Part shown: positions 136 through 43,931 of the stretch, one piece after another
How the letters are laid out: every line of letters begins with the position of its first letter
How positions within the stretch are numbered: position 1 is the stretch's first letter
Assembly (NCBI GenBank): GCA_012295275.1
Contig: CM022678.1
Coordinates: forward strand, 14,880,001-14,944,000
Reading direction: 5' to 3'
DNA: 64,000 bases
Origin: Chrysomallon squamiferum
Lineage: Eukaryota > Animalia > Mollusca
Made by a program: the position numbers and the translations under genes
Notes under the pieces: model-generated
Told to the model about the DNA's origin: nothing
Database searches by the model: none
What the model saw: the letters and a program-made list of their open reading frames with translations, nothing else

Positions 136-860
136 AATTTGTCAGTGTTTTCCACTTGCGTTTCTGTGTTTCTCAGTTTAAACAATAGCGATATTTTTAT
201 CCTCATTGAATTATAATATATTTTTTTTTTTTCATTTGTTGTTGACCTTTACATTGTGGTTTCAGTTGGTATGTTTGAATTTCAGATGCATTTTCAAAGT
301 ACATATATCATAGTATTGTACCTTAGCGTGGTTAAAAAACAACTAATCTAACACTTCTATTGTTTTAGCACTCGATTTGATGTCTTTTTAATTTTTTTAT
401 TTCAGACAATAGCGATGTCTTCGCAATTTTCGATACTACCACAATATGCAGGTATAGTTTTCTGCAGATTTCAAAAGTGATAATAACAAAAAGTGAAACT
501 GTTAAATAATAATACTAATACTAATACTAATATTAATAATAATAATAATAATAATAATAATAATAAACAATAAATATTAAAAATAAAATAAAAAAATGAC
601 TTTAAAGGAATAACTTTTATTACTCATGATACGAACATGTTTCTTTCAAATATTTGTCCTTTTAATTAAAATGGAATTATTCGTTTTTATTTTTTTATAA
701 TGTCTAACCTTTGTTTATTTATTTATTTTCAAACTGTATATTTTTCGTTTCCTCACTGTTTCTGCAACAACAACAACTGCAACAACTAGTACTGTTTCTA
801 TTACTGCTTCCTACTGGTACTACTACTAGTCAATATATTACTTCTGTTACTAGAAAATCA
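136..860. repeat. Inverted duplication; reverse-complement copy at about 36880-37532, with further inverted pieces of 500-1400 at about 34430-35135
   Basis: The ATG exon and flanking introns match in opposite orientation. Confidence 0.9.
415..451 (+). CDS. Microprotein locus A, first coding exon (MSSQFSILPQYA + phase-1 G)
   Basis: Acceptor tttttttatttcag ends at 405, ATG at 415, donor G|gtatag at 451/452. Homologous exons with the same phase-1 donor lie on the minus strand at 15488-15524, 37226-37262 (identical CDS) and 43892-43931. Confidence 0.6.
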
Positions 861-2263
861 CACCGATGAATGTAAGGGAGAAAATATGTAGTCGCAGCTC
901 TTATAGGATATAACACTGTGTATCTAACTGGCGTTTTTAGATGATTTTATTGTCTGATCCATTGAATATTACTTTCCTTTCATTGGAGAGAGGGATTTTT
1001 CTAAGTAATGGTCAACTTAATCATATATAAAGACTAGTAAAATATGAAGCTTTATAGTTGAGGTAATCATTGTAATGTAGTATAAAAATAATAAAATGGA
1101 ATTATTCATCTTTATTATATTATAATGTTTAACCTTTGTTTATTTATTTACTTTTCAAACTTTATATATTTTTTGTTTCCTTACTATTTTTACAACAACG
1201 ACCACTAGTATTATTACTGTTTCTATTACTACTTCATATTGCTACTATTAATAATATTACTGTCATCACTTCAACATGGTTACTCTTTCTACTGCTATGT
1301 CTGCTACTAGAAAATCATACTGACCAATGTAAGGGAGAAAATAAGTAGTAGCAGCTCTTACAACAATATTTAACTGGTTTGCCTTTTTAGATGATTTTAT
1401 TGTCTGCCATTGAATACTACTTTACTTTCATCGTGTAATAGATATTTTTTTTAGTGAATTTAATAATATAAAGAACAGTAAAATATGAAGCTTTATAATG
1501 GAGATAATATGGTATAGAAATTATAGTAGTAGCGATAGTGCTATTAAAATGTAGTAGTAGTAGTAGAAGTACTAGTGGTAAAGAAAATAATTAAATAAAG
1601 TTTCAAAAATAAATAAACAGATAAAAGTACTAATGAGTACAAAAAATGGAAATAGAATTCAAAATTGGAATAAAAAACACCTTTATAAACACACACAAAC
1701 ACAAAAAAAAGAGGGATAGAGGCAATCAAGTGTTCTCCTACCGTACCCTAGCTATCTGCTATTAATTCTTTCTCTGTAACATTATTAATTAATTATATTT
1801 AACTAACTGGCCTTTTTAGATAAATTTATTGTCTGATCCATTGAATATTATTTTTCTTTCATTTGGCAAAGGGATTTTTCTAAGTACTAGTGAACTTAAT
1901 AATATAAAGAACAGTAAAATATGAAGCTTTATAATGGAGATAATGTGGTATAGAAATTATAGCAGTAGTAATGGTGATGTTAAAATGTAGTAGTAGTAAA
2001 AGTAGTAATAGTAAAAAAAATAATTACTTAAAATTTCCAAAATCAATAAACAGATAAAAGTATTAATGAGTACAAAAAATTAAAATGGAATATAAAATTT
2101 CATTAAAAGAATTTATACAGAAACAAGCAATACATTTTTTTAAAAATGAGAAAAGGGAATCAGTTGTTCCCCTCCTCTGCCCTAGCTATCTGCTATTAAT
2201 TCTTTCACTATAACATTATTAATTTATTAGTTAATTGAAAGAATTAATAAATTATGCTATTAA

Positions 2264-2377
2264 TCTCTCTCTCTCTCTCTCTCTCTCTCTCTCTCTCTCT
2301 CTCTCTCTCTCTCTCTCTCTCTCTCTCTCTCTCTCTCTCTCTCTCTCTCTCTCTCTCTCTCTCTCTCTCTCTCTCTC
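2264..2377. repeat. (CT)n microsatellite
   Basis: Pure CT run. Confidence 0.98.
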
Positions 2378-2666
2378 TTTTACGGAGGAAAATTGACCTT
2401 GTTTGCATCGATTTTTTCCTGCATTGTTAGCAATAATAATAATAATATTACTACTACTACTACTACTACTACTATTAATAATAATAAATAAATAAATAAA
2501 AAATTAATAAATAAAAATATAAAACGAGACTTACTTTAAATGAATAACTTTTTCTTACTCTCAGAACATTTATTTTATAATTATCAGTTGTGAAACTTAT
2601 GATATGAACATTTTTCTTTCAAAGATTTGAAATTAAAATGGAATTATTTGCTTTTTTTTATTGTAG

Positions 2667-41125: not shown

Positions 41126-41976
41126 GAGAGAATGGAGAAAGTCAGAGTCATTAAAAGAACTCCTTCTACTCTCAGAGATCCCAATGGCCAAGGTGAAAAC
41201 GAAACACATCAATCAGATTAATGCTTAATAATGATAATAATTACTGTGATTTTAGTTATATTTCAGAATGAACAGAATTATGCTTTGTTTGACCTCTTTG
41301 AAGAAAGTAAACCTGGTATTTAAAATGATGATGATTCAATATTATATAATGAAAATACCATTACATATTATATGTATATTTAAAAATAAGATTTATTTTT
41401 ATTTTGTTTAGTTTTAGTTACAAAGTCTCTCACTGAGAAAGGTTTGGATATGATGTTTTTGTGCAGCCAGTAACTAGACGTGTGTCACATGCTGAAAGCC
41501 AACAAAACAAATCTGTTGACTTGACTCATACACGTAATTCTGTTACTTATTGTTTTTGTATTTTTGTATGTGTCATCTGTTGTTATATATTAATTCTCTC
41601 TCTCAGTCGTTTTCTCCTTTCTGAATGAAAAACTATTTTTGAAAAACATGGTTTGCAAAGCAACTCTGGGTTGAAAACCCTGATACAGACCAGATTTACC
41701 AGAGGTTTTCTCGTTTTATTTTTGTTTTATTTTGCTTAATAATTATATTGTCTCTGAAAAATAGGAAGCTTGCATGTGAGACATTGCAGTCAGCAATGAG
41801 CCCAATCATTGTATGAGAAGCAGGCCTAGGCTATAGTAGTCTCCCTTCCCACGTGGAAATTGGACGTTTTCACTGTTGAGAAAGATATCTGTTTCACATC
41901 TCTCCAAAAACTTGATAAGACATTACGTTAATTCTAACAACCTCACCTTCAGTGAGTCTGTTCAAATGACAGACTG
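41126..41976 (+). pseudogene. Caspase-like gene fragment, copy 2
   Basis: Direct duplicate of 29561-30601. Exons 41126-41192 and 41267-41315 splice in frame to REWRKSESLKELLLLSEIPMAKNEQNYALFDLFEESKP. Later exons are disrupted but retain HCMRSRPR and NNLTFSESVQMTD|gtgagt. Confidence 0.45.
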
Positions 41977-43149
41977 GTGAGTGATAAAATAGAAAGAAAG
42001 TAACTAACTAACCAAACAACTAAATAAATAAATAAATAAATAAACAACTAAATAAATGAATAAATAAATAAATAAATAAACAAGTAAATAAATAAATAAA
42101 TAAACAACTAAATAAATAAATAAATAAATAAATAAATAAATAAATAAATAAATAATAATAATAATAATAATAATAATAAATGAAATTAAACCGTATACAG
42201 CTAAATTGGTTTGAAATTAATTGATTAATAAAACATTTTTTTTTAAAAAGTATTCAGAAAGCAAAGTAAAGAATAGGAAAAACAAATTTAAAATTAAAAA
42301 ATTCTATGCCATCAGATCAAAAAACATAACAAAAATCAAAGAAAAAGGTATAAAAAGAAATAAAAGGTAAATTAAAATAATACATTATATTTGAAATAAT
42401 TTTAATTAGCTATTAATAGTATTGTTAATAAATAAATAAGTAAATAAATAAATAAAGATGTCCAATGTAAAAAACAATGAGAAAGAAATGATAAATTAAA
42501 TACTGATTTAAAACAAATTAAAAACTTAATAAACACATTTTTCAAAATGAAGAAATGCACAATATTCTATACGATCCTTAAAAATGATGTGCCTAATAAA
42601 GGTGTGTTTTCTTTAACAAACAATATTTTAAAAAACAAGAATCTTTTTAATCTTTAAATATATCCTTATTCTCACTCCTTTTACATCACAAACTTTTTAA
42701 TCTTTAAATATATCCTAACTCTATCTCCTTTTACATCACCATTATGTGCTTATATTTGCTGCTTCCGCCTATCAGTACGTGAAATGGAGATTCAACTGTT
42801 TTTGTTTCATGTTGTCTCCCTTAGACTTTATATATTATCTACGTCTTACATGTATTTCATCTTGTATATATCTTCACTCTGGTAAATCTGGTGTAAAAAT
42901 TATGTTTGTAGGACAGTTAGAAGTCTATTATTAATATTATTATTGTTATTATTAGATCAACTACGGCTACATTATATCAATATAAATACACTGAAGTATA
43001 CTGAATAATTGCATATACTGAACAATATGACAAATTATGAACTAAGCTTTGTCAGAGACAATTTCCCTTCAGAATGGGCACTTCAATATCAAAATTTCTA
43101 CAAAAGGCACTAAAATATTAAAAATGTTTTTAGTCACTTGCAATATTTT

Positions 43150-43931
43150 TTACTCATTTGCTATTTTTAAAAAATCAAAGGAAAACAGAACCCTGGTGTT
43201 TAGAACAAAGTTCTTTAATCCATCCAAGTGTAAAACTGCTACAGTTCCATTTCAGTATCCATTTTATTACTGTCCTGGTCTTCTCTCTTCTTCATCTAGA
43301 ATAATAAAAGAATAAAATAACACTGATTTTCAATAAATAAATAAAGAAACAAACAAACAAAGAAATAATAATAAAAAAAATAGATGTATCATGACTAAAA
43401 GAAGAGTGTAAAAGAAGTCAAACATATAATATACAATTTAAAATTATATGACAGTATATAATTTGCCCTTATTATATTTGTTGTTTTTTTTTAAAATGTA
43501 AACTTACTCTCTTCACGAAGAGTGAGAATACCAAAAATGGAAACTGCTGCAATGAGCATCATCATCAGTATGAAAAACTGATCTGGACAGCTTTCTACAA
43601 TAAAAAAAAATAATAATTTCGTTTTAATTTAAAACAGAACCTCACCTTATATCTGAAAGAAAATGTTTGTATCATGAGTTTCACTCTTGTTATATAAATA
43701 AATGTTCTGATGTAAAAAAAAAAAAAAAAAACGTTATTCGTTTAAAGGAAGTCTACCTTTTTATTTTCTATTTATTTTTTTAATTATTTACTTATTATTA
43801 TTATTATTATTGTTAGTAGTAGTAGTAGTATTTTAATTTAACAGTTTCACTGTTTGTTATTATTACAGCTGAAAGCTAAAGAAAACTATACCTGCATATT
43901 GTCGTATTGAAAATAGCAAAGATATGTCCAT
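43150..43931 (-). CDS. Microprotein locus C (43931-43892, 43594-43508, 43238-43150), 71 aa: MDISLLFSIRQYAESCPDQFFILMMMLIAAVSIFGILTLREETVLHLDGLKNFVLNTRVLFSFDFLKIANE*
   Basis: GT-AG junctions intact, phases 1-1, open frame from ATG to TAA. Differences from the locus B TM exon fall only at codon positions 1 and 3. Confidence 0.65.

What the first reader, a model, noticed from the sequence alone, without database searches (positions are those of the whole stretch)
415..43931. Hidden, locally expanded family of spliced single-pass membrane microprotein genes
Seen: four loci (A +, B/C/D -) share a 37-40-nt ATG exon and an 87-nt phase-1/1 exon encoding a hydrophobic helix (consensus SxPxQLFILMMxLVxAVSxFGIxTLREE); B, C and D also share a short terminal exon (TVLxxD...). 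Junctions are canonical GT-AG. Between B and C the TM exon differs only at codon positions 1 and 3: four synonymous changes (GCT/GCA, GGA/GGT, ACA/ACT, GAA/GAG) plus S/C and hydrophobic swaps L/F, V/M, I/M, L/I. The alternative frame has stops in B and C. Inference: this frame has been under coding constraint, giving 53-71 aa membrane microproteins whose exons are too small for ORF finders. I do not recognise the family. A YAxxDPxxxF pattern before the helix in locus A is faintly like SMIM15/UPF0542, which is weak. Helix-only microproteins often regulate pumps or channels (established for sarcolipin, phospholamban and sarcolamban); such a role here is only a hypothesis.
Basis: partly seen in the sequence, partly recalled or inferred. 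Interest (0 to 1): 0.8.

Follow-up and report, generated by a model that had tools for sequence, protein, structure and literature searches.

The report
Duplicated, spliced membrane microprotein genes
An animal genome, likely a snail's, holds four duplicated copies of a gene with no database match whose tiny exons are spliced in RNA for at least one copy and likely encode a roughly 50-60-residue protein with one membrane helix, which would act as a small accessory partner of a larger membrane protein.

Summary
The exons are real: four ATG exons and eight copies of an 86-88-nt hydrophobic exon. The unit is not a high-copy repeat. Coding constraint is moderate: dN/dS is not significantly below 1 and exons diverge like introns, but helix changes stay hydrophobic (P about 0.003-0.03) and intact copies have no exon indels. 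No homologue was found in Pfam, PDB, 1.84 billion representatives or JGI contigs; not SMIM15, not a regulin. Best reading: a lineage-restricted, birth-and-death family of single-pass microproteins (about 0.55); translation, tails and partner are untested. The scan's notes had no earlier record of it.

The parts
406..451 (+). Locus A ATG exon (46 nt from acceptor; ATG at 415; phase-1 donor)
   Evidence: sequence; not itself laid with RNA
2667..2753 (+). Locus A helix exon, copy A1 (intact)
   Evidence: X1 RNA contig matches 2665-2744 with 0 differences and leaves the genome at the acceptor; A1 and A2 cannot be told apart over that stretch
3459..3545 (+). Locus A helix exon, copy A2 (intact; 86 of 87 identical to A1)
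4375..4461 (+). Locus A helix exon, copy A3 (stop codon after the helix)
12862..13146 (-). Candidate third exon of B: best-scoring acceptor downstream of B, frame open 95 codons through a CA microsatellite to the N gap; untested
   Evidence: lies outside both stretches laid with RNA
14052..14148 (-).
   Evidence: crossed unspliced by an X1 contig
15083..15172 (-). Locus B helix exon as spliced in RNA (90 nt, upstream AG of a NAGNAG acceptor)
   Evidence: X4 contig, 0 differences, joint 15172/15488
15488..15530 (-). Locus B ATG exon (43 nt; ATG at 15524)
   Evidence: 43 nt on the short side of the X4 joint and bin depth fit this exon
16388..16623 (-). Predicted 5' non-coding exon of B: GTAAGT donor at 16387, in-frame TAG three codons before it, variable poly-A inside
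   Evidence: not covered by RNA contigs
31700..31980 (-). Predicted terminal exon of D (acceptor 31980, stop 31954-31952); first 80 nt identical to C's; 3' end unknown
32232..32317 (-). Broken helix-exon copy D3 (1-nt deletion)
32819..32906 (-). Broken helix-exon copy D2 (acceptor AG lost, 1-nt insertion)
36469..36555 (-). Locus D helix exon (open, but with Met>Lys and Phe>Ser inside the helix; possibly decaying)
37226..37271 (-). Locus D ATG exon (coding part identical to A's); predicted upstream donor at 37575
43200..43295 (-).
   Evidence: untested with RNA
43508..43594 (-). Locus C helix exon (intact)
43892..43934 (-). Locus C ATG exon (43 nt; the A/B/D ATG reads ATA here, an in-frame ATG stands two codons upstream, 3-nt deletion inside); predicted upstream donor at 44728

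Best explanation
These are four locally duplicated copies of a spliced gene (splice shown for B, implied for A) that likely encodes a 50-60-residue protein with one membrane helix and would work as an accessory subunit packing against a larger membrane protein. Anatomy: a predicted non-coding first exon, an ATG exon giving a free-to-vary 12-13-residue leader, an 87-90-nt exon giving a 19-residue helix flanked by Pro and Arg/Glu, and a short charged terminal exon (predicted 9 residues in C and D; different and unidentified in B and A). Selection appears to keep hydrophobicity and frame rather than exact sequence, and copies are born by segmental and single-exon duplication and die by frameshift, stop or acceptor loss. 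Shown: exons, B splice, low copy number, no database homologue. Inferred: translation and membrane insertion (about 0.6-0.65), product under 100 aa (about 0.55), accessory-subunit role (about 0.4 given the former; by analogy only).
For: GT-AG joint 15488/15172 in an RNA contig while DNA-like run X2 crosses both introns unspliced. A-type RNA contig leaving the genome at the acceptor. Best 19-residue Kyte-Doolittle mean 2.56-2.87 in B, C, A, D. All 14 nucleotide changes inside the helix among A, B, C are silent or hydrophobic-to-hydrophobic against a neutral share of 0.65-0.69 (P 0.003-0.006; with D 18 of 20, P 0.015-0.03); simulation of terminal branches P 0.0025-0.0125. 0 exon indels in 6 of 6 pairs of B, C, A1, D against 6-11 gap openings per about 245 intron columns (P about 0.005 counting the broken copies). 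In the ATG exon both indels are 3 nt, and C's lost ATG is offset by an in-frame ATG; a purine stands at -3 in all four. In-frame TAG three codons before the predicted upstream donor in B, C and D. In Drosophila 32% of annotated short CDSs have a transmembrane helix and characterised ones regulate canonical proteins (PMC11674832, abstract and passages).
Against: Exon p-distance 0.13-0.24 versus downstream intron 0.13-0.37. Pairwise dN/dS 0.35-1.43; a stop-containing frame scores as low (0.24-0.61); pooled independent pairs pN 0.15, pS 0.19, Fisher P 0.46. All 4 A/B differences in the ATG exon are non-synonymous. Position-2 depletion not significant over four copies. The tests are post hoc (D and broken copies set apart), intron indels sit in homopolymers, and several Met>Ile changes also fit AT-biased mutation. 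T-rich DNA yields helices by chance: 31 of 2717 YAG sites in 1-54200 are followed by an open hydrophobic 28-codon stretch, family exons and microsatellites included (cf. PMC7005711, abstract). RNA support is 1 contig each at depth 3-5 from 1 study; no evidence of translation; terminal exons of A and B unknown; no partner identified.
Confidence: 0.55

Rival explanations
1. Spliced non-coding RNA or decaying duplicated gene: the exons are used, but the hydrophobic frame is a by-product of T-rich sequence or a relic no longer under selection.
For: Exon and intron divergence are alike and dN/dS is not significantly below 1; 3 of 8 helix-exon copies are broken and D has polar changes; a neutral copy set stays stop-free about half the time; a spliced transcript without a clear ORF lies next door at 9986-12062; low contig depth.
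Against: Hydrophobicity retained in 14 of 14 helix changes among A, B, C; no exon indels in intact copies; 3-nt indels and the offsetting ATG in the ATG exon; purine at -3 in all four.
Confidence: 0.2
2. The two exons are the N-terminal signal anchor (or long signal peptide) of longer type II or secreted proteins whose C-terminal exons differ between copies; B could continue into the His/Thr-rich frame at 13146 and on into the assembly gap.
For: B's RNA contig goes on 148 nt into unidentified sequence; the best acceptor downstream of B (13146) opens an in-frame 95-codon stretch reaching the gap; the helix begins about 19 residues from the ATG.
Against: The open frame is largely a CA microsatellite, which has no stops in any frame; its only Pfam hit is E 0.21; 0 of 69 flanking ORFs reach a Pfam cutoff; no hit among longer proteins; C and D have a strong acceptor followed by a stop after 9 codons.
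Confidence: 0.2
3. The exons are the juxtamembrane, membrane and tail exons of larger type I receptors like the snail polymorphic transmembrane clusters PTC1/PTC2, with the ectodomain upstream.
For: Phase-1 membrane exon plus short charged tail is typical of type I proteins (own knowledge); the ATG exon is open in frame up to its acceptor and its indels are 3 nt; clusters of diverse single-pass genes are described in Biomphalaria (PMC10635097, passages).
Against: The conserved upstream donor carries an in-frame TAG in B, C and D and its exon has variable poly-A; no recognisable ectodomain among the 69 ORFs scanned. A's upstream sequence is outside the window and the upstream exon is not RNA-verified.
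Confidence: 0.05

Closest known systems
Short coding sequences (sCDS/smORF genes) encoding single transmembrane helices, as characterised in Drosophila (PMC11674832, abstract and passages)
   Same: Own spliced mRNA, predicted product under 100 aa, one hydrophobic helix, no homologue outside the lineage so far.
   Different: Here a local family with exon-level duplication and decay; translation not shown; three or more tiny exons.
Regulins: sarcolipin, phospholamban, sarcolamban (bioRxiv 10.1101/2020.07.19.211243, passages)
   Same: Small size, one helix, Gln just before the helix in A, B, C; a model of how such a peptide could work.
   Different: [quoted passage not shown]
SMIM15/UPF0542
   Same: Asp-Pro before a helix and a charged tail (resemblance recalled, not from a call).
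   Different: No Pfam hit at E up to 10 for the helix exon of 4 copies, no hit in the representative search; Asp-Pro is in A only.
Biomphalaria polymorphic transmembrane clusters PTC1/PTC2 (PMC10635097, passages)
   Same: Clustered, fast-evolving single-pass genes in a snail.
   Different: The PTC2-linked candidates in the passages seen are 270-817 aa, several with recognisable domains; none is evident here.
De novo transmembrane ORFs from thymine-rich DNA, e.g. yeast YBR196C-A (PMC7005711, abstract and outline)
   Same: Orphan helix in T-rich sequence, weak classical selection signal.
   Different: Here spliced, multi-exon and duplicated; a non-coding ancestor cannot be shown without related genomes.

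Membership tests
Transmembrane sCDS/microprotein genes (class) | Own spliced mRNA joining an ATG to the helix in frame | tested here: met
Transmembrane sCDS/microprotein genes (class) | One hydrophobic segment long enough to span a membrane | tested here: met
   best 19-residue Kyte-Doolittle mean 2.56-2.87; no dedicated topology predictor was available
Transmembrane sCDS/microprotein genes (class) | ORF under 100 codons | tested here: inconclusive
   50-51 aa predicted for C and D; terminal exons of A and B unidentified; B would be at least 137 aa if 13146 is used
Transmembrane sCDS/microprotein genes (class) | Translation (Ribo-seq or peptides) | not testable with these tools
   no such data available
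Transmembrane sCDS/microprotein genes (class) | Purifying selection on the frame | tested here: inconclusive
   dN/dS not significant; hydrophobicity and indel tests P 0.003-0.03 but post hoc
Regulins (sarcolipin, phospholamban, sarcolamban) | [quoted passage not shown] | tested here: not met
   feature from bioRxiv 10.1101/2020.07.19.211243 passages; absent from all copies
Regulins (sarcolipin, phospholamban, sarcolamban) | Lys/Arg/Gln at the N-terminal end of the helix | tested here: inconclusive
   Gln in A, B, C, but one residue without an alignment means little
Regulins (sarcolipin, phospholamban, sarcolamban) | Profile or structure-sequence match | tested here: not met
   0 Pfam families for the helix exon; no regulin among 5 PDB rows at E up to 10
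Regulins (sarcolipin, phospholamban, sarcolamban) | Binds and regulates SERCA | not testable with these tools
   no SERCA sequence of this organism was held
SMIM15/UPF0542 | Pfam profile match and relatives across animals | tested here: not met
   only the helix exon with short flanks was scanned, not the spliced product
PTC1/PTC2-like type I receptors | Ectodomain exons upstream of the membrane exon | tested here: not met
   0 of 69 ORFs at a Pfam cutoff; in-frame TAG before the upstream donor; A's upstream region lies outside the window
High-copy transposon | High genomic depth over the unit | tested here: not met
   X2 depth 40-119 over B's exons, single-locus contigs 38-65, against 3000-16800 over neighbouring repeats, at 85% likeness; the tool warns that depth is no copy number, and more diverged copies would be missed

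The most novel reading that the evidence does not exclude
A lineage-restricted modular microprotein family in which one leader-plus-helix cassette is spliced to unrelated interchangeable tails (a 9-residue Glu/Arg tail in C and D, a microsatellite-encoded His/Thr-rich, possibly metal-binding tail in B, another in A) and in which tandem in-frame helix exons (A1-A3) let one gene make one-, two- or three-helix products.
Probability: 0.1. Interest if true: 0.65.

Novelty: new member of a known kind. Interest (0 to 1): 0.4.

Why it matters
If translated, this is an uncatalogued gene family invisible to ORF finders (coding exons of 37, 87-90 and about 27 nt), caught in birth-and-death evolution, where selection seems to keep hydrophobicity rather than sequence. 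It adds an invertebrate example to a known class and a small test case for how orphan membrane microproteins duplicate and swap tails. It reveals no new mechanism until translation and a partner are shown.

Tried and rejected
Homologues: no candidate for B's helix exon among proteins of 22-72 aa; with a 5-copy alignment, 0 of 6480 longer and 0 of 112 similar-length candidates at E up to 10; 0 at E up to 0.001 among 1.84 billion representatives; JGI metagenome contigs, 0 of 259 pattern matches confirmed and 0 matches to a degenerate exon pattern; Pfam 0 families for the helix exon; ESM Atlas gave only unnamed 34-46-aa 'hypothetical' clusters at 0.90-0.93 and one 0.89 lead for B, nothing named for A; PDB gave 5 influenza M2 helix rows at E 0.34-1.3, taken as noise. 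All these queries were single exons with short intronic flanks, 32-41 aa and hydrophobic, so a blank is weak evidence. Rfam: 0 matches in 1-54200. No whole genome is held, so genome-wide copy number and orthologues were not examined. RNA: run X3 had no contig on B's exons; no C- or D-type contig was laid on B, which is uninformative because exact shared words are short; terminal exons of A and B were not seen in 2400-12600, but 57 pieces and 29 loose ends were not shown; 12601-13199 was never laid. Codon-position test and dN/dS gave no significant signal. Structure and complex prediction were not run: a lone 28-30-residue helix would add nothing to hydropathy. Literature searches for a mollusc family of this kind and for SMIM15 features listed nothing matching; listings only. 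Scan notes: none near, by sequence or by words.
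Full report
Setting. The window is AT-rich animal DNA (22-35% GC per 2 kb up to 54 kb) with N gaps at 12661-12860 and 54259-54458. No whole genome is held. Notes by other agents on this genome call it a snail; I did not test that.

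Observation. BLAST with B's exons finds 4 ATG exons and 8 helix-exon copies, plus a 24-nt fragment at 34405-34428. Five helix-exon copies are open (A1, A2, B, C, D); A3 has a stop, D3 a 1-nt deletion, D2 a lost acceptor and a 1-nt insertion. The copies sit in segmental duplications: 16131-23271 matches 44498-51650 at 96%, A's front matches D's inverted at 85%, and the A helix exon lies in tandem units of about 0.8-0.9 kb.

RNA. Four runs were offered, three RNA runs of one study and one of unrecorded kind that behaves as DNA. On 13200-16500 one X4 contig (291 nt, depth 4.8) matches 15083-15172 without difference and joins to 15488 across a GT-AG intron of 315 nt; 43 nt on the short side fit the ATG exon 15530-15488. 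X2 contigs cross both introns unspliced. The contig stops matching exactly at donor 15083 and its last 148 nt are not accounted for in any bin of the stretch; no joint to 14148 is listed (2 joints at repeats were dropped by the tool), and an X1 contig runs 14111-14405 without a gap. An X1 contig with 8 differences over 15092-15155 fits the A type and matches A at 2665-2744 with 0 differences, its first 75 nt lying elsewhere: consistent with splicing from the ATG exon, which was outside the stretch laid. X3 had nothing on these exons. DNA depth over the exons is near single-locus level, unlike adjacent repeats, so this is not a high-copy transposon.

Gene model. The ATG exon is 43-46 nt from its acceptor. 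A GTAAGT donor is conserved upstream of B (16387), C (44728) and D (37575) with an in-frame TAG three codons before it, in a unit with variable poly-A, so the ATG is probably the start (prediction). The shared 'TVLxxD' stretch is then 3' UTR, which explains its homologue at about 27383-27250 as well. A has no clear candidate.

Selection. Against: exon distances (0.13-0.24) resemble downstream intron distances (0.13-0.37); dN/dS 0.35-1.43 over 6 pairs, a stop-bearing frame 0.24-0.61; pooled independent pairs P 0.46; 9 of 35 changes at position 2, P about 0.2; all 4 A/B differences in the ATG exon change the residue. For: 14 of 14 helix changes among A, B, C are silent or hydrophobic (P 0.003-0.006), 18 of 20 with D (P 0.015-0.03); simulated neutral branches lose hydropathy (P 0.0025-0.0125); 0 exon indels among B, C, A1, D against about 3 expected per pair, 2 in all if D2 and D3 are counted (P about 0.005); both ATG-exon indels are 3 nt and C's lost ATG is offset in frame. 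These tests are post hoc and the intron indel rate is inflated by homopolymers. About 1% of YAG sites in the window are followed by a hydrophobic open stretch (31 of 2717), in line with the finding that T-rich DNA readily encodes helices (PMC7005711, abstract). Net: moderate support for a constrained helix, none for a constrained sequence.

Relatives. None in Pfam, PDB, the 90% and 50% protein collections, JGI contigs or named ESM Atlas clusters. Queries were single short exons, so distant kin may be missed. Of 69 flanking ORFs none reaches a Pfam cutoff; 2 weak DUF hits fall below it. Rfam 0.

Mechanism. Most likely a 50-60-aa single-pass protein: variable leader, 19-residue helix, short charged tail. 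With no room for a domain, it would act through its helix on a larger membrane protein, as characterised short CDS products do (PMC11674832, abstract and passages). That last step is analogy. It fails the regulin test (no Trp-Leu-Leu; bioRxiv 10.1101/2020.07.19.211243, passages) and the SMIM15 test. Rivals: non-coding or decaying transcript (0.2), signal anchor of longer proteins (0.2), tail end of a PTC-like receptor (0.05; PMC10635097, passages).

Verdict. New member of a known kind, interest 0.4. No supplements were read.

Noticed in passing
window 9986-12062 (+): A spliced RNA contig of run X4 (5 and 11 differences, so probably a paralogue) joins 10095 to 10401 by GT-AG and goes on to an exon about 11912-12062 that ends at a GTAAGT donor; no clear ORF; a 5' UTR or lncRNA converging on B.
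   Followed up: partly
window 54459-64000: 9.5 kb of degenerate CA-rich satellite after an N gap, with only 21 G in 9542 bases on the + strand.
   Followed up: no
window 16131-24010 and 44498-52704: About 8-kb segmental duplication at 96-98% identity upstream of B and C, holding 7 copies of an acceptor-plus-poly-A unit and extra GTAAGT donors at 21771 and 50136.
   Followed up: partly
window 27250-27383 (-): A third homologue of the family's 3' UTR behind its own possible acceptor; could be an alternative terminal exon of D.
   Followed up: no
window 14640-14860 and 15753-15888: High-copy short repeats (DNA depth in the thousands, many RNA contigs) inside B's second intron and upstream of B.
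   Followed up: no
window 8340-8940 (-) and 25200-25730 (-): Fragments that look like a LINE RNase H region and a Tc1-type transposase (recalled resemblance; no Pfam hit).
   Followed up: no
window 5021-5567: Minisatellites of 43 and 41 nt just downstream of the A helix exons.
   Followed up: no
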